This document shows, in pieces, positions 17,677 to 22,428 of a stretch of DNA of 64,000 bases. The stretch's first letter is position 1. Every line of letters starts with the position of its first letter. Made by a program: the position numbers and the translations under genes. Location of the stretch: the IMG/VR virus record IMGVR_UViG_3300007177_000042; one strand, written 5' to 3'. The notes under the pieces are model-generated. The model was not told the DNA's origin, ran no database searches, and saw only the letters and a list, made by a program, of their open reading frames with translations. This DNA comes from a virus. Taxonomy: Duplodnaviria; Caudoviricetes.

Positions 17677-17689
17677 TCACACTATGTAT

Positions 17690-17726
17690 GAGAGATGGTG
17701 TACACAGGTGCACCATCTCTCTTTTT
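17690..17726 (+). terminator. Intrinsic terminator between SSB and recA
   Basis: GAGAGATGGTGTAC-ACAG-GTGCACCATCTCTC, 14-bp stem with one G:U, followed by TTTTT. Confidence 0.85.
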
Positions 17727-17738
17727 ATTTCAAATGTT

Positions 17739-18938
17739 ATGTCAGAATCAAAAGATACACCAAAAAAGAAAAAACTGTCTACGCATGTAACCCATGAAGT
17801 AGATACAAAGAGAGATGAACTTACCGAATCCTTGGCAGATATGCTTAACAAAGCAAATAAGGACGGTGGAAAAAGCGCATTTTTCTTGGATGACAAAGAA
17901 GATCCATCTGTAATTACGGACTGGATCAGCACAGGATCGGATTTGCTCGATCTTGCTATATCAAATCGACCACATGGTGGAATTCCCGTTGGACGAATTA
18001 CTGAAATCACCGGATTGGAAGCATCTGGTAAGAGTTTGCTTTCGGCACATTTGCTTGCTGAGACTCAAAAGAAGGGCGGCGTTGCTGTGTTTATCGACAC
18101 AGAACAGTCTGTTTCTGATGATTTCTTGACAGCAATCGGTGTCAATACAAAGCAAATGTTGTATATCGCATCACAAACAGTAGAGGATATTTTCGAGAAG
18201 ATCGAAAACATTATTGCTCACGTTCGTAAGTCGAACAAAGATCGATTGGTCACAATCGTTGTTGACAGTGTTGCGGCTGCTTCTACAAAAGCAGAATTGG
18301 AAGCTGATCATGGTAAAGACGGTTTCGCAACCGGCAAAGCCATCATCATTTCTAAGGCTATGAGAAAGATTAACGACATGATTGGTAAACAACGTATTGC
18401 GTTGATTTTTACCAATCAGTTGCGAGTCAATCTTCAAGCTGCTATGTTTGGTGACAAGTATATCACAAGTGGTGGTAAAGCATTGCAGTTTCATGCTAGC
18501 GTTCGTCTTCGATTGAAGGGAATGGGTGCATTGAAAGTTACACAAAATGGAGAACCAGTTCATATTGGTGTCAAGACCCGCGCTGTGGTTGTCAAAAATC
18601 GTCTCGGACCTCCTATGAGACATGCAGACTTCAGTATCTACTACGATAGTGGAATCGACAATTATGGAAACTGGCTTGAAGTGTTGAAGAAAACTTCTTT
18701 GATTACCGGTGCCAAGAGTCCTTACAATTATACGAAGAATGACGGATCTGTTATCAAACTTGATGCAAAGACCTTTGCTAAAGACATGAAGGCAGATGCT
18801 GAACTTCGTGAAGAGTTGTATTTGAAGATCGTTGATGCATCTATTATGAGATATAAGTCTCAGGATAGTGAAATTCGTGAAGACGTTGAACTTGACGATT
18901 CAGACGACGACGGTGATACTAGTGGCGGAGAAGAATAA
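17739..18938 (+). CDS. recA: RecA/UvsX recombinase (start re-assigned to ATG 17739, MSESKD)
   Basis: GRITEITGLEASGKS Walker A, IVVDSVAA Walker B, FTNQLR, TSGGKALQFHASVRL, VVKNRLGPP; the longer ORF start overlaps the terminator. Confidence 0.95.
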   Translation: MSESKDTPKKKKLSTHVTHEVDTKRDELTESLADMLNKANKDGGKSAFFLDDKEDPSVITDWISTGSDLLDLAISNRPHGGIPVGRITEITGLEASGKSLLSAHLLAETQKKGGVAVFIDTEQSVSDDFLTAIGVNTKQMLYIASQTVEDIFEKIENIIAHVRKSNKDRLVTIVVDSVAAASTKAELEADHGKDGFATGKAIIISKAMRKINDMIGKQRIALIFTNQLRVNLQAAMFGDKYITSGGKALQFHASVRLRLKGMGALKVTQNGEPVHIGVKTRAVVVKNRLGPPMRHADFSIYYDSGIDNYGNWLEVLKKTSLITGAKSPYNYTKNDGSVIKLDAKTFAKDMKADAELREELYLKIVDASIMRYKSQDSEIREDVELDDSDDDGDTSGGEE

Positions 18939-18983: not shown

Positions 18984-19904
18984 ATGAATAAAGCGGAAAA
19001 CACTGATTTAGATACATTAGCAGATGACGTTTATAACGAGTTCATCAGAAACGAAAGTTATTGTGGACTCAATTCAATATTTAAAGACAAAAAGATTGGA
19101 AGTAAAACTGCATTAAAAATAAGAAAAATTATTTACAACAAATATGGTGAAAAACCAATGAAGTCTATTTCGGTTCATCGTACTGCTAAACACGCTCATA
19201 AAAATAGAACTAAAGAAAGTTACAATATACCATCGAATCGTCGTAAAAAAATGATTGAAGGTATGAAAAAGTATTGGGAAGGTAACGACGCCGCTAAACA
19301 AAAATCAAGAGAATCGATGATTAAACACTGTCTTCCTAAGAGTCAGTCTCCAAGTACAAAATTAAAAAGACGTGAAAGTCGGAGAGGATACCGACATAGT
19401 GAAGATACTAAACTAAAAATAAAAAATTCCATGAAAGGAAAACCATTAAGTGTTGAACATCGATTAAAGTTACGAAAGAAAAAATCAAAAACACGTCAAA
19501 ACTTTAAACACACAATCGATACTAAACAATTGTTATCAAAGTTGACTAAAAAACAATGGGAAGATGGAATACACAAACCGGTTTTCAAATCAAAAGGACA
19601 TGCTGAAATACTAGATATCATTCTAAAATTAGGTTATAATGTAGAAGAGGAATACTTAATTGAAGGTCGTCCATATGATATTCATGTTCCACAAAAAAAT
19701 TTATTGATTGAATTTAACGGTACTTATTGGCATAGAGATCCGAGATTTTATAATAAAGAAGATTCTCAATTAATATGGAATAAAGATAAGTCGAAAGTTG
19801 ACATTGCATTAAAAAATGGATATCGTATTGAAACGATATGGCAATACGATTGGGAAATCACAGAAGAAAAAATACAACTAATAAATAAAATACTAAATGG
19901 ATAA
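18984..19904 (+). mobile_element. Free-standing homing endonuclease-like gene (NUMOD3-like repeats plus Vsr/DUF559-like nuclease domain)
   Basis: HSEDTKLKIKNSMKG, LSVEHRLKL, HTIDTKQLLS repeats; C-terminal PYDIHVP..LLIEFNGTYWH...IETIWQYD; very AT/Lys-rich. Confidence 0.75.
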
Positions 19905-20974
19905 TTTAAACAGTAACGAAAAAAAGAGGTTGTTTTCTCTTTTTAACAACATGAAAGGAGAGGCCGTCACAGCAGAACTTAATACAAGTTTGAATAGCAA
20001 TGTTCTGTTGGTTGACGGCCTCTAGCGTCAACACTTTTATTAGAGCATATTCAGTTGTACCATCAATGAATGACGATGGTCTTCATACTGGCGGTATATC
20101 TGGATTTCTAAAAAGTGTTGGGTATGCTTTAAAACTATTGAATGCTTCTCGGTGCGTCATTGTATTTGACGGATCGGGTGGAAGCATGAAACGTAGAAAA
20201 ATTTATCCGGAGTACAAAGATAGAAAGAAAACTAAGCTCAGACTCAATAGAGCCTATACCGATCTATCCACCTCCGATTTGGAGGAGAAAAACCTCAAGG
20301 CACAGTTGATGAGGTCAATTCATTATTTGGATTGTCTTCCAGTCACAACTATGGCTATCGATCATATCGAAGCCGACGATGCGATTGCATACATTGCACA
20401 ACAGTATTACAAAGACGATACTAACGTGACAATTATGAGTGCAGATAAAGACTTTTTGCAACTCGCTGGGGATCGTATCCAGATATGGAGTCCTACCAAG
20501 AAAAAGTTGTATGGATGTGCTGAAATTATTAATGAATACGGTATCAACTGTAAGAACTTTATTTGGTATCGAGTCCTAGAAGGAGATGAATCCGACAACA
20601 TTGATGGTATTCATGGTGCTGGTCTTAAAACGATCATAAAGGCGTTTCCTTTTTTGGCAGAAGACAGACGAGTAGAATTAGACGAGATTTATACCCACGC
20701 TGAAAACAATCAGAGTAAGTATAAAATCTATAGAACAATTCTAGAAAACAAACATATTGTGGAACGTAATCATACGTTGATGCAATTGAAAGATACGGAG
20801 ATTCAAACGTTCTCACAACTTCGTATCAACGAAATATTGGATAAGCCAGTAAAAAAGCTGGACAGGTTCAATTTTTCCAAACTAATCACCGAAGATAAAA
20901 TGTGGAATAATATTCCCAATTATCAAGTATGGTTGAACGAAGCGTTTGGAAGATTAGACACCTTTGTGAGATAA
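19897..20974 (+). CDS. rnh: 5'-3' exonuclease/RNase H (T4 rnh/FEN-like), interrupted at 20023-20029
   Basis: Upstream part 19897-20025 MDNLNSNEKKRLFSLF...NVLLVDGL* and downstream frame NTFIRAY...VFDG..GS..RRKIYPEYK..R, EADDAIAY, SADKDFLQL, GDESDNIDGI together form a complete FEN-family enzyme. Confidence 0.85.
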
Positions 20975-21030
20975 TCTAAACAAAAAAACTATGCGCTACC
21001 ACAGGCGTAGTGTATACTAGAGGTAGATAT

Positions 21031-22428
21031 ATGAGTATTACTAAACAAACACAAGTCATTGATAATCTTAAGAAGTACGGAACAGAATTTCAGATCAAAT
21101 GCATATCGGGCATTTTAAGTGATAAAACGTTTCTAGAACGACTATCGGACATCATCGATCCAACGTCGTTTGAATCGGATGCCCAACAATGGATTGTACG
21201 AGAAACAGTGGCATACTTTATGGAATATAAAGACTTGCCTACTATGAACGTGTTTCGTGTCAAGGTTGATACAATCGAAAACGATCTGCTTAAGACAGCA
21301 GTCAAAGATCAACTGAGAAACGTGTATCAGAAAATTACAGACACCGATCTACAGTTTGTAAAAGAACAATATCTTGAGTTTTGTAAAAACCAAAAACTTA
21401 AAAACGCTATTGTTGAAAGTATCGACTTGTTGAAGGCAGGTAAATACGAAACGATCAAATCAGTAGTTGATTCTGCTCTTAAGGCTGGTATGGAGAGAAA
21501 CATCGGGCATGATTATATGACCGAAGTTGAGGACCGTATGAGTGTTATGGCTCGTAACACCGTGAAGACCAACTGGACCGAAATCGATACAATTATGGAC
21601 GGTGGACTTGCTGCTGGAGAGCTTGGAATTATTACTGCCTGTGCTGGTAGTGGTAAGAGTTGGGTATTGAGTAAATTGGGAGCCGAAGCCATGAAACAGG
21701 GTAAGAATGTTGTACATTATACTCTTGAATTGAACCAGAATTATGTAGGTCTACGATATGATTCTTGTTTCACAGGAATCGACTTCCAAAATATTAGAAA
21801 TCATGTGGATGTGGTTCGGGATAAGATTGCAAAGGTTCCGGGCAAACTGATTATCAAATATTTTCCTATCAAGACTGTTAGTGCTCATCATTTGAAATTG
21901 CACGTTGAACGTGTACAAATGCTTGGCACGAAAATTGACATGATTATCGTTGACTATGCTGATATTTTGAGACCATCTCAGAGTGATCGTAATAGTAACA
22001 GTTATAGCGAAGCCGGTGGTATATACGAAGAACTACGTGGCATTGCTGGCGAACTACAAGTTCCAATTTGGAGTGCGTCACAAAGCAACAGAGCTGCTAT
22101 GGATGAGGATATCATTCAAGCCAACAATATTTCAGATTCATACCGAAAGATTATGACTGCTGACTTTGTTATGTCACTCAGCCGTAAGGTTACCGATAAA
22201 GTTGCTAACACTGCACGGTTTCATATCATTAAGAACCGATTTGGACCGGATGGTTTGACTTTCCCAAGTCGCATGAATGCTGGTTGTGGAGATATTCAAA
22301 TTTTCTCCGAAAACTCAAAGGAGGGTATGTCAATCACCAACGAAATGGGTGACAGTGAGAATCTTGTTAAGAAAGCACTGGCTTCCAAGTGGAATGCACA
22401 TGTCAGTTCAATGGAAGACGAGGAGTGA
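21031..22428 (+). CDS. Replicative DNA helicase (DnaB/T4 gp41-like)
   Basis: GELGIITACAGSGKS Walker A, IIVDYAD, WSASQSNR, IIKNRFGPDG; ATG 21031 follows GAGGT. Confidence 0.92.
   Translation: MSITKQTQVIDNLKKYGTEFQIKCISGILSDKTFLERLSDIIDPTSFESDAQQWIVRETVAYFMEYKDLPTMNVFRVKVDTIENDLLKTAVKDQLRNVYQKITDTDLQFVKEQYLEFCKNQKLKNAIVESIDLLKAGKYETIKSVVDSALKAGMERNIGHDYMTEVEDRMSVMARNTVKTNWTEIDTIMDGGLAAGELGIITACAGSGKSWVLSKLGAEAMKQGKNVVHYTLELNQNYVGLRYDSCFTGIDFQNIRNHVDVVRDKIAKVPGKLIIKYFPIKTVSAHHLKLHVERVQMLGTKIDMIIVDYADILRPSQSDRNSNSYSEAGGIYEELRGIAGELQVPIWSASQSNRAAMDEDIIQANNISDSYRKIMTADFVMSLSRKVTDKVANTARFHIIKNRFGPDGLTFPSRMNAGCGDIQIFSENSKEGMSITNEMGDSENLVKKALASKWNAHVSSMEDEE

What the first reader, a model, noticed from the sequence alone, without database searches (positions are those of the whole stretch)
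20011..20032. RNase H/5'-3' exonuclease split inside its catalytic motif by a stop codon held in a perfect hairpin: candidate ribosomal hop or +1 recoding
Seen: the ORF starting at ATG 19897 (MDNLNSNEKKRLFSLF...NVLLVDGL) ends at TAG 20023-20025, and the enzyme continues in the +1 frame from AAC 20030 (NTFIRAY...). Removing the 7 nt TAGCGTC gives the typical FEN-family VDGLNTFIR motif. Those nt complete a perfect stem GTTGACG(20011-17)/CGTCAAC(20026-32) with loop GCCTCTAG, so the stop sits in the loop right after the last sense codon. The ORF-track start (ATG 20000, MFCWLTASS) lacks the first catalytic Asp. Known: T4 gene 60 is decoded by bypassing from a take-off codon followed by UAG in a hairpin; prfB uses +1 shifting at CUU-UGA. 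Inference: a 7-nt hop CUC to GUC (356 aa) or a +1 shift (VDGL-SV-NTF, 358 aa) restores the enzyme and may regulate it. The downstream ~940 nt show no other decay, which argues against an old pseudogene. A recent template-switch insertion or an assembly error is possible.
Basis: partly seen in the sequence, partly recalled or inferred. Interest (0 to 1): 0.85.

Follow-up and report, generated by a model that had tools for sequence, protein, structure and literature searches.

The report
Homing-endonuclease cassette with ribosome-hop gap
A selfish nuclease gene has carried a replacement gene start, an RNA hairpin and a 7-base stop-led gap into this lake phage's flap-endonuclease gene; over 20 gap versions (5-11 bases) in relatives suggest ribosomes hop over it, though translation was never tested.

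Summary
The 5'-3' exonuclease gene is split at VDGL|NTFIR by TAGCGTC (20023-20029), and independent contigs carry the same 7 nt, so it is no assembly error.

It is the 3' end of a mobile cassette. The parts are a free-standing EDxHD/Vsr-like homing endonuclease (18984-19904), a replacement 42-codon N-exon (19897-22), a 20-bp hairpin ending at the take-off codon (19959-78 / 20002-23), and the gap.

Relatives carry about 22 gap versions of 5, 6, 7 and 11 nt. Every one starts with TAG, TAA or TGA directly after the last sense codon. All keep the covarying hairpin. Most end in a codon resembling the take-off codon (9/12 pairs, then 6/7 out of sample, two perfect).

No single frameshift can decode all these lengths; a short hop (here CUC to GUC, giving the 356-aa wild-type protein) can.

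Caveats:
- No translation data exist.
- Four versions have poor landing matches.
- The cassette spreads so recently that downstream conservation says little.

I found no natural short stop-hop in the literature. This scan noted similar FEN cases earlier on other DNA.

The parts
17688..18938 (+). RecA/UvsX-like recombinase gene. It is the conserved left neighbour; in relatives without the cassette it directly abuts the exonuclease gene.
   Evidence: PF00154, E 7.6e-55. The order recA-(HE)-exo-helicase holds in all related loci.
18984..19904 (+). Free-standing homing endonuclease gene (306 aa) with N-terminal NUMOD-type DNA-binding repeats and a C-terminal EDxHD/Vsr-like nuclease domain. Its stop overlaps the N-exon start (ATGGATAA, 19897-19904).
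   Evidence: Pfam NUMOD3 plus a weak MTES_1575 hit. PHROG 3339 'homing endonuclease', E 9e-14. AlphaFold model pLDDT 81; best PDB fold match is the I-Bth0305I catalytic domain 3r3p (E 6e-5, TM 0.72), then E. coli Vsr. Invariant D232, E243, H250, D252 and D268 across 14 homologs of 35-61% identity.
19897..20022 (+). N-exon: a 42-codon replacement 5' end of the exonuclease gene, ending in the catalytic motif LLVDGL. It travels with the cassette.
   Evidence: Cassette alleles share a KGEAVT/SVT signature that insert-less alleles lack. N-exon dN/dS is 0.12-0.6 among cassette alleles. It is unlike the N-terminus of near-identical insert-less partners.
19959..19978 (+). 5' strand of the conserved hairpin. 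It includes GAGGCCGTCA (19960-19969), which encodes 'EAVT'.
   Evidence: Fold. RNAalifold gives 16 pairs, 5 with compensatory changes.
20002..20023 (+). 3' strand of the conserved hairpin (20002-20010 and 20013-20023). The basal helix TGACGGCCTC covers the Asp-Gly-Leu codons and ends at the take-off codon and the first base of the stop.
   Evidence: In 25/25 gap alleles tested the helix ends -1 to +3 nt from the end of the take-off codon. Junction-abutting duplex is -17.4 kcal/mol against -8.0 in 20 insert-less alleles (Mann-Whitney p 2e-7).
20020..20022 (+). Proposed take-off codon CTC (Leu), the last sense codon of the N-exon.
20023..20029 (+). 7-nt coding gap TAGCGTC. The stop TAG (20023-25) is followed by C. 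The last three bases GTC (20027-29) are the proposed landing codon.
   Evidence: All roughly 22 gap versions in relatives begin with a stop codon. The landing codon resembles the take-off codon.
20030..20974 (+). C part of the 5'-3' exonuclease/FEN (314 codons plus stop). Decoding resumes at AAC 20030.
   Evidence: PF02739 88 bits; PF01367 33 bits. PDB relatives are the Taq/Pol I 5' nuclease, T5 FEN and T4 RNase H. More than 99% identical to an insert-less allele in other runs from 20028 onward.
20011..20032 (+). It is real but lineage-specific and competes with the long hairpin for the same 5' arm.
   Evidence: It is not present in the 5-, 6- and 11-nt gap types.

Best explanation
The split is the 3' end of a mobile homing-endonuclease cassette. 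The cassette sits between recA and the phage's only 5'-3' exonuclease gene. It consists of an EDxHD/Vsr-like endonuclease gene, a replacement N-terminal exon, and a short stop-led gap placed between the Leu and Asn codons of the catalytic VDGL|NTFIR motif.

Inferred steps:
- The gap breaks the endonuclease's target, so carriers escape cleavage, as the 50-nt gap does for MobA in T4 gene 60.
- The enzyme is still made because ribosomes stall with CUC in the P site and UAG-C in the A site.
- The peptidyl-tRNA(Leu) lets go, the mRNA slides 7 nt, the tRNA re-pairs on GUC, and decoding resumes at AAC. This gives the exact 356-aa wild-type protein.
- The conserved hairpin, whose 3' strand ends at the take-off codon, would re-zip behind the stalled ribosome. 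That would compete for the take-off codon and pull the mRNA forward, like the 5' stem-loop of gene 60.

Shown here: the anatomy, recurrence, mobility, hairpin covariation and stop conservation.
Inferred only: the hop itself, the target-site protection and the hairpin's role.
For: 1. Linkage. In close relatives every locus with the endonuclease has a gap (window plus more than 25 loci). All 55 insert-less loci lack the endonuclease. Four loci keep the gap without it.

2. Mobility. Gap alleles are 98-99.7% identical to insert-less partners from the first base after the gap, while the N-exon is unlike them. The same holds for the window against public runs, with homology starting at 20028.

3. 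About 22 gap versions of 5, 6, 7 and 11 nt sit at the same codon boundary. All begin with TAG, TAA or TGA, including nine in-frame 6-nt versions. So the stop is conserved as a class. The base after the stop is C in most versions, which from general knowledge is a weak termination context.

4. The last gap codon matches the take-off codon at 2 or more of 3 positions in 9/12 non-redundant pairs (permutation p 1.5e-4). In a later pattern scan it matched in 6/7 new versions, including CTT-TAG-CTT and CTG-TGA-CTG. Covarying pairs are CTC/GTC, TTG/GTG, CTG/GTG, ACT/GCT and ACG/GCG.

5. A hairpin ends at the take-off codon in 25/25 gap alleles. It shows compensatory changes and is much weaker in insert-less alleles, including four lineages that have the endonuclease but no gap.

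6. The N-exon keeps its ATG, its open frame and the [ILV]DG[LT] motif in all cassette lineages, with dN/dS 0.12-0.6.

7. Contigs from RNA-labelled runs keep the 5-nt gap, with no joined form.

8. Precedents are the T4 gene 60/MobA cassette and its 5' stem-loop and synthetic stop-hops.
Against: - There is no translation, proteomic or ribosome-profiling evidence for any member.
- In the window, take-off and landing differ at the first codon position (CUC/GUC). That implies a G.G clash with nucleotide 36 of tRNA-Leu.
- Four versions match poorly: CTA/AAA, CTC/AAC, ACG/GCT and CTT/GTA.
- Landing similarity could partly reflect how the inserts arose (short flanking repeats).
- Downstream ORF integrity and low dN/dS are uninformative, because the cassette has spread recently into diverged backgrounds. 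N-exons are 3% or less apart while C parts are saturated at synonymous sites.
- At least four lineages have the endonuclease but an uninterrupted gene (L108, L110, L115, L190 group), so the gap is not the only route to coexistence.
- Some insert-less clades also have strong hairpins in this region, ending 8-11 nt upstream. One insert-less allele (L244) has a cassette-type hairpin.
- The cleavage site of the endonuclease is unknown.
- No cultured phage carries the cassette.
Confidence: 0.58

Rival explanations
1. Recoding occurs, but not as a full hop. The ribosome slips forward just past the stop (+1 in the window, +2 in 5-nt gaps, +3 or readthrough in 6-nt gaps) and decodes the rest of the gap. 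This adds 1-3 residues (VDGL-SV-NTF in the window, 358 aa).
For: The downstream frame is open through the gap in all frame-shifting versions. The two 7-nt versions with poor landing matches (TAGAAAA, TGACAAC) would be readable by a +1 skip. An upstream helix abutting the P site could stimulate a +1 shift, by analogy with the upstream Shine-Dalgarno stimulator of prfB (general knowledge).
Against: - It needs three different slip sizes in homologous elements.
- It does not explain why the last gap codon resembles the take-off codon.
- CUC>UCU re-pairing is poor.
- More than 75 uninterrupted homologs show no length variation between the catalytic Asp and the FIR arginine. The same spacing is seen in Taq, so extra residues there are probably harmful.
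Confidence: 0.14
2. The gene is simply broken. A selfish cassette spreads by homing even though it inactivates a dispensable exonuclease (host Pol I could substitute). The downstream ORF looks intact only because each insertion is recent.
For: The cassette is demonstrably recent in many backgrounds. T4 rnh is non-essential (general knowledge). There is no expression evidence.
Against: - All roughly 22 gap versions keep a stop codon of varying identity, even when in frame. Under neutrality most changes would give sense codons.
- The hairpin covaries and always ends at the take-off codon.
- The N-exon keeps its ATG, frame and catalytic motif under dN/dS below 1 across deeply diverged cassette lineages.
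- Every gap allele with enough sequence has a full 313-322 codon C part.
- Gap alleles without the endonuclease are common.
- This is the only PF02739 gene in the 171-kb record.
Confidence: 0.12
3. A two-piece enzyme. The 42-aa N peptide terminates at TAG, the C part is initiated separately (ATG 20000 or TTG in the window, GTG in TAGTG alleles), and the pieces assemble non-covalently. Some endonuclease-split phage genes do work this way.
For: In TAGTG alleles, stop and GTG overlap like a coupling signal. Endonuclease-split genes that work in pieces are known, for example Aeh1 nrdA and T4 39/60.
Against: No start codon is conserved. Landing codons include GTC, GCT, GCG, ACA, CTC, CTA, CTT, CGC and AAA. 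Several versions (L106, L109, L113) have no ATG, GTG or TTG nearby. The N piece would have to donate a central beta-strand carrying a catalytic Asp.
Confidence: 0.05
4. An artefact or an RNA-level fix: a sequencing or assembly error, or removal of the 7 nt from the transcript.
For: The window is a metagenome-assembled contig. Its own allele was not recovered from the public runs served.
Against: Identical or homologous gaps occur in more than 60 contigs from many metagenomes. Contigs from RNA-labelled libraries retain the gap with no joined form, although DNA carry-over cannot be excluded. No known mechanism removes 5-11 nt from bacterial mRNA.
Confidence: 0.02

Closest known systems
Phage T4 gene 60 translational bypass with the MobA homing-endonuclease element (Huang 1988; Bonocora 2011; Manning and Atkins preprint 10.1101/2022.08.31.505936)
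   Same: - An endonuclease gene, a replaced gene segment and an untranslated gap move as one cassette.
- The gap sits in a conserved catalytic motif.
- A stop codon immediately follows the take-off codon.
- Take-off and landing codons are similar.
- An RNA stem-loop lies 5' of the gap.
- The endonuclease is often lost while the gap stays ('hit and run').
- Vsr-like endonucleases can replace MobA in some gene 60 cassettes.
   Different: - The gap is 5-11 nt, not 50 nt.
- There is no sequence homology.
- The host gene is a FEN/5'-3' exonuclease, not topoisomerase.
- The endonuclease is of the EDxHD/Vsr type, not HNH.
- The gene is not also split into two ORFs by the endonuclease.
- There is no conserved A-site take-off stem-loop and no internal Shine-Dalgarno element.
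- The hairpin's 3' strand includes the take-off codon.
- Codons are usually near-matched rather than identical.
- Bypass has not been shown experimentally.
Synthetic 'stop-hops' in E. coli (Weiss et al. 1987, as reviewed in PMC5009743)
   Same: Peptidyl-tRNA hops over a stop between matched codons, so that 9 nt encode one residue. Relatives with CTT-TAG-CTT and CTG-TGA-CTG have exactly this form.
   Different: Those were artificial and low-efficiency. The review states that no natural occurrences are known. Here the gap is natural, recurrent, of variable length (also frame-changing, as in the window) and comes with a conserved hairpin.
Mitochondrial 'byp' elements of Magnusiomyces capitatus (Lang 2014; Nosek 2015, cited)
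   Same: Short mobile inserts in essential genes that are skipped by ribosomes.
   Different: Those are 27-55 nt GC-cluster-like elements in yeast mitochondria. The A-site codon is an unreadable sense codon, and there is no homing endonuclease.
prfB (RF2) +1 programmed frameshift at CUU UGA C
   Same: A Leu codon followed by a weak stop (stop plus C). An upstream RNA pairing element close to the P site acts as stimulator. Several relatives literally have CTT TGA C.
   Different: A +1 shift restores the frame only in the 7-nt versions. The window's CUC>UCU re-pairing is poor. The stimulator here is an intramolecular hairpin, not a Shine-Dalgarno:anti-Shine-Dalgarno pairing. No autoregulatory logic is apparent.
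I-Bth0305I and the EDxHD homing endonuclease family (PMC3239194)
   Same: N-terminal NUMOD-type repeats plus a C-terminal Vsr-like nuclease domain. It is the best structural match. The family occurs in phage recombination and replication genes, and free-standing members are reported.
   Different: I-Bth0305I is intron-encoded in recA. This one is free-standing between recA and the exonuclease gene and is paired with a translational gap instead of an intron or intein.

Membership tests
T4 gene 60-type programmed bypass cassette | Stop (or hungry) codon immediately 3' of the take-off codon | tested here: met
   TAG at 20023-25 follows CTC. All roughly 22 gap versions in relatives start with TAG, TAA or TGA.
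T4 gene 60-type programmed bypass cassette | Matched take-off and landing codons readable by one tRNA | tested here: inconclusive
   The window has CTC/GTC, a 2/3 match with a first-position mismatch. Across the family, 9/12 then 6/7 pairs match at 2 or more positions, two perfectly and four poorly.
T4 gene 60-type programmed bypass cassette | Take-off stem-loop with the take-off codon in its 5' side, able to form in the A site | tested here: not met
   In the window's local hairpin the take-off codon lies in the loop. That hairpin is not conserved in other gap types and is absent from the MFE fold.
T4 gene 60-type programmed bypass cassette | 5' stem-loop upstream of the gap | tested here: met
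   A 16-20 bp hairpin with compensatory changes. The geometry differs, because its 3' strand reaches the take-off codon.
T4 gene 60-type programmed bypass cassette | Roughly 50-nt gap with an internal Shine-Dalgarno-like element 6 nt before landing; sequence homology; location in Topo2L | tested here: not met
   The gap is 7 nt (5-11 nt in relatives) and the host gene is a FEN. There is no similarity to gene 60.
T4 gene 60-type programmed bypass cassette | Linked homing endonuclease whose cleavage is blocked by the gap | tested here: inconclusive
   Linkage and mobility are shown. Cleavage and protection cannot be tested with these tools. Four lineages have the endonuclease without a gap.
T4 gene 60-type programmed bypass cassette | Bypass product demonstrated | not testable with these tools
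   No proteomic or reporter data exist.
Stop-hop (Weiss et al. 1987 type) | Identical or synonymous codons flanking an in-frame stop; 9 nt give one residue | tested here: not met
   Not met in the window, which has a 7-nt frame-changing gap with CTC/GTC. Met in relatives: CTT TAG CTT, CTG TGA CTG, CTT TGA CTC/CTA, CTT TAA CTG.
prfB-type +1 programmed frameshift | +1 shift restores the frame; slippery P-site re-pairing; Shine-Dalgarno-like stimulator about 3 nt upstream | tested here: not met
   A +1 shift would restore the frame in the window. However, CUC>UCU re-pairs poorly, and no Shine-Dalgarno-like run precedes CTC (the sequence is GGTTGACGGC). Homologous 5-, 6- and 11-nt gaps cannot use +1.
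EDxHD / Vsr-like homing endonucleases | Vsr-like nuclease fold with conserved acidic and His catalytic residues; N-terminal NUMOD DNA-binding repeats | tested here: met
   Fold match to 3r3p (E 6e-5, TM 0.72) and to Vsr. Invariant D232, E243, H250, D252 and D268. NUMOD3 hit. The domain order is the same as in I-Bth0305I.
EDxHD / Vsr-like homing endonucleases | Site-specific cleavage of the element-free allele | not testable with these tools
   Supported only indirectly. The cassette boundary lies at the gap, and near-identical element-free partners exist.
FEN / 5'-3' exonuclease (PF02739 + PF01367) | Pfam domains above threshold and the full set of catalytic carboxylates, including the first Asp (Taq D18) | tested here: met
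   PF02739 scores 88 bits (cut-off 34.3). PF01367 scores 33.3 bits, below its cut-off of 40. The first Asp is encoded only in the N-exon and aligns with Taq D18 in the intact relative.

The most novel reading that the evidence does not exclude
This is one member of a widespread natural family of very short (5-11 nt) programmed translational hops. The hops are carried by homing-endonuclease cassettes as a self-immunity device. Their driver is an exit-side hairpin whose 3' strand includes the take-off codon. If so, ribosomes in ordinary aquatic bacteria routinely hop over stop-led gaps of any frame, and gene callers systematically mis-annotate such phage genes as truncated or as pseudogenes.
Probability: 0.5. 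Interest if true: 0.9.

Novelty: new variant of a known kind. Interest (0 to 1): 0.8.

Why it matters
Programmed translational bypassing in phages has one established example, T4 gene 60 and its homologs in the same topoisomerase gene. A 2016 review states that shorter natural counterparts were long expected but that no natural stop-hops are known.

A family of 5-11 nt gaps with a simple, covarying hairpin would supply natural sequence variants for working out what makes a ribosome let go of its codon and where it lands.

It would also show a general way for homing endonucleases to invade conserved catalytic motifs without introns or inteins.

It also matters for annotation. The gene here is called as a 324-aa protein lacking a catalytic Asp.

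Tried and rejected
- **DNA search against GenBank phages:** no match. Cultured relatives (Microcystis phage Mel-JY01, Flavobacterium immuto phages) and LR756508 have uninterrupted genes. The endonuclease has no full-length homolog in cultured phages. So there is no laboratory system.
- **PDB sequence search with the endonuclease:** only spurious DARPin hits. The fold search was needed.
- **Window's own allele in public runs:** only insert-less near-identical alleles were found, so raw-read confirmation for this contig was not possible.
- **Purifying selection after insertion:** the C part has dN/dS 0.04-0.11 in a gap-bearing clade that mostly lacks an adjacent endonuclease. I rejected this as evidence, because the N-exons there are 3% or less diverged while the C parts are saturated. 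The cassette is younger than the backgrounds.
- **Suppressor or odd tRNAs:** none in the 171-kb record.
- **Alternative genetic code:** all three stops end long ORFs, and TGA is not in frame in neighbouring genes of L113.
- **Rfam:** no family.
- **Scans with L113 and L111 exonucleases:** only insert-less relatives.
- **Shine-Dalgarno-like AGGAG next to the 5' arm:** also present in insert-less clades, so not claimed as a signal.
- **Split helicase in relatives:** this turned out to be inteins, not gaps.
Full report
**Observation**

The window comes from a 171,680-bp IMG/VR viral contig from aquatic metagenomes. At the given coordinates the sequence reads GTT GAC GGC CTC TAG CGT CAA C.

- ORF 19897-20025 encodes 42 residues ending NVLLVDGL.
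- The 5'-3' exonuclease continues in the +1 frame from AAC 20030 to the stop at 20972-20974.
- Pfam PF02739 matches the C part only from profile position 11.
- In an uninterrupted, 91%-identical relative, the missing VDG aspartate aligns with D18 of the Taq polymerase 5' nuclease.

**It is not an artefact and not unique**

A scan of viral contigs with the C part returned 80 loci. Fifty-five read straight through VDGLNTFIR or close variants. The rest carry an insert at exactly the same codon boundary:
- TAGCGTC in L023 and L025
- TAACGTC in L004 and L005
- TAGTG in 21 loci

Scans with the upstream ORF and a pattern scan added further versions: TAGCT, TAGCG, TGACA, TGACTC, TGACTA, TGACTG, TAACTG, TAGCTG, TAGCTT, TGAGTA, TAACGC, TAGAAAA, TGACAAC and TGAAGAAGCTG. 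Lengths are 5, 6, 7 and 11 nt. Together with the varying take-off codons this gives about 22 versions.

**The upstream ORF is a homing endonuclease, and the whole unit is mobile**

ORF 18984-19904 has these features:
- a NUMOD3 motif
- a match to PHROG 'homing endonuclease'
- invariant acidic and His residues across homologs of 35-61% identity
- a model (pLDDT 81) whose best PDB fold match is the I-Bth0305I catalytic domain, followed by E. coli Vsr

I-Bth0305I is the prototype of the EDxHD family. That family has the same N-terminal NUMOD / C-terminal Vsr-like order and includes free-standing members.

Among close relatives, every locus with this gene between recA and the exonuclease has a gap. 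No insert-less locus has it. Four loci have the gap but have lost the gene.

Gap alleles share a 42-codon N-exon with a signature (KGEAVT / SVT) that insert-less alleles lack. Downstream, gap alleles are 98-99.7% identical to insert-less partners from the first base after the gap, while the N-exon is unlike them. For the window itself, public runs hold an allele without the endonuclease and without the insert that is more than 99% identical from 20028 onward but different in 19955-20027.

The cassette is therefore endonuclease + N-exon + gap, with its right boundary at the gap. It has entered many backgrounds recently. This is the behaviour described for MobA and gene 60.

In a 101-nt fold the window forms a 20-bp hairpin, 19959-19978 with 20002-20010 and 20013-20023 (-34.7 kcal/mol, z -5.2). 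The local stem does not appear in that fold. The basal helix GAGGCCGTCA/TGACGGCCTC ends at the take-off codon.

- RNAalifold on 11 alleles gives 16 pairs, 5 with compensatory changes.
- Explicit pair counts show 90% pairing and covariation above all shuffles.
- More distant cassettes keep the helix with different letters, for example AAGACCATCA/TGATGGTCTT and TGCCGTCGATG/CATCGACGGCA.
- In 16 + 9 gap alleles the helix ends -1 to +3 nt from the end of the take-off codon.
- The junction-abutting duplex averages -17.4 kcal/mol, against -8.0 in 20 insert-less alleles. That insert-less set includes four lineages that have the endonuclease but no gap.

The 3' strand changes only synonymously for Asp-Gly-Leu/Thr, while the residues encoded by the 5' strand vary. 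So the 5' strand adapts to a protein-constrained partner.

Caveats:
- One insert-less clade has a strong hairpin ending 8-11 nt further upstream.
- One insert-less allele (L244) has a cassette-type hairpin, possibly after gap loss through its flanking repeat.

**How it is most likely decoded**

Gaps of 5, 6, 7 and 11 nt put the C part in all three frames relative to the N-exon. One frameshift type therefore cannot serve homologous elements. A hop can.

- All versions begin with a stop codon, and its identity varies (TAG, TAA, TGA), even in the nine in-frame 6-nt versions. So the stop function is what is conserved.
- The base after the stop is C in most versions. From general knowledge this is a weak termination context.
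- The last three gap bases resemble the take-off codon:
  - 9 of 12 non-redundant pairs match at 2 or more positions (permutation p 1.5e-4).
  - A later pattern scan gave 6 of 7 new versions matching, two of them perfectly (CTT TAG CTT, CTG TGA CTG).
  - L443 adds ACG/GCG beside ACT/GCT.
- For the window this means CUC (20020-22) to GUC (20027-29), resuming at AAC 20030. The product is 356 aa and colinear with all intact homologs.

The hairpin could act like the gene 60 5' stem-loop, whose re-formation behind the ribosome is proposed to propel the first steps of bypassing. Here, the apical helix can re-form while the ribosome sits on CUC. Zipping of the GC-rich basal helix would then compete for the take-off codon and pull the mRNA forward. 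This step is inference.

**What weakens the case**

- Nothing shows translation.
- CUC/GUC mismatches at the first codon position.
- Four versions (CTA/AAA, CTC/AAC, ACG/GCT, CTT/GTA) match poorly.
- Because the cassette is young relative to its backgrounds, intact downstream ORFs and a C-part dN/dS of 0.04-0.11 do not prove selection after insertion. In that clade the N-exons differ by 3% or less while the C parts are saturated.

The better functional arguments are:
- conservation of the stop as a class
- the hairpin covariation
- the N-exon, which evolves with the cassette yet keeps its ATG, its frame and the catalytic motif, with dN/dS 0.12-0.6

Contigs from RNA-labelled libraries retain the 5-nt gap. 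This argues weakly against removal at the RNA level.

The record holds no tRNA genes, and all three stops are used as stops.

**Comparison with what is known**

The closest system is the T4 mobA/gene 60 cassette. A 2022 preprint found its homologs only in topoisomerase genes. Synthetic stop-hops are known, but the 2016 review says no natural ones are. Literature searches found no report of this system.

Earlier notes of this scan describe CUU-UAA-CUC gaps in FEN genes of other genomes, and similar endonuclease-linked gaps in iscU, methylase, helicase and terminase genes. I did not rely on them. They agree with what I found here independently, and one similar case was later given low odds for its bold reading.

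**Verdict**

This is a real, recurrent, mobile endonuclease cassette with a stop-led gap and a covarying hairpin. A short programmed hop is the best-supported decoding (about 0.58). It is a new variant of a known kind.

Noticed in passing
L075:4560-6030 and L026:4560-5300 (relatives); window helicase 21010-22428 is uninterrupted: The DnaB/gp41-like helicase of some relatives carries an intein in the Walker A motif (GSGK|C...SHN|S). In L075 the intein holds a Vsr-like endonuclease domain; in L026 it is a mini-intein.
   Followed up: partly
L105:254-1738 and L111:860-2001: In two cassette-bearing relatives, recA is split near residue 260 by 1.1-1.5 kb that contains a second, weak Vsr-like endonuclease match. 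Whether this is an intron, an intein or another split-gene cassette was not determined.
   Followed up: no
L027, L033, L034, L037, L058, L065, L073 (about 100 nt before the VDGL codons): An insert-less clade has a 17-bp hairpin in the N-terminal coding region. Its arms look like a Shine-Dalgarno sequence and its complement (CAAGGAGG... / ...CCUCCUUG). It may be regulatory, and may be the ancestor of the cassette hairpin.
   Followed up: partly
L006-L022 and L002 (start of the exonuclease gene versus the LLVD codons): Other insert-less alleles show a 10-12 nt complementarity between the start-codon region and the LLVD-coding segment (for example CATCAACCAAGA / TCTTGGTTGATG), with different letters in different clades.
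   Followed up: no
window 19897-19904: The endonuclease stop codon overlaps the N-exon start (ATGGATAA). This suggests translational coupling of the exonuclease N-exon to the endonuclease gene.
   Followed up: no
whole record G000 (171,680 bp): No tRNA or tmRNA genes were found. TAG ends only 6 of 110 long ORFs (TGA 52, TAA 52), so the gap uses the genome's rarest stop.
   Followed up: partly
L108, L110, L115, L189-L198: Four lineages have the endonuclease gene between recA and an uninterrupted exonuclease gene. Their junction residues are unusual (GM|NLF, GY|NLF, GL|NQF), which may give target immunity by substitution instead of a gap. In L115 the endonuclease is in two pieces.
   Followed up: partly
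L109:3976-5182 and L067:2950-3080: The helicase is read in three frames in L109 and has a frame break near residue 232 in L067. This is most likely poor contig quality or deletions, but further gaps were not excluded.
   Followed up: partly
L070-L072:1903-2870: About 1 kb of extra sequence lies between recA and an uninterrupted exonuclease gene. It is not a homolog of this endonuclease.
   Followed up: no
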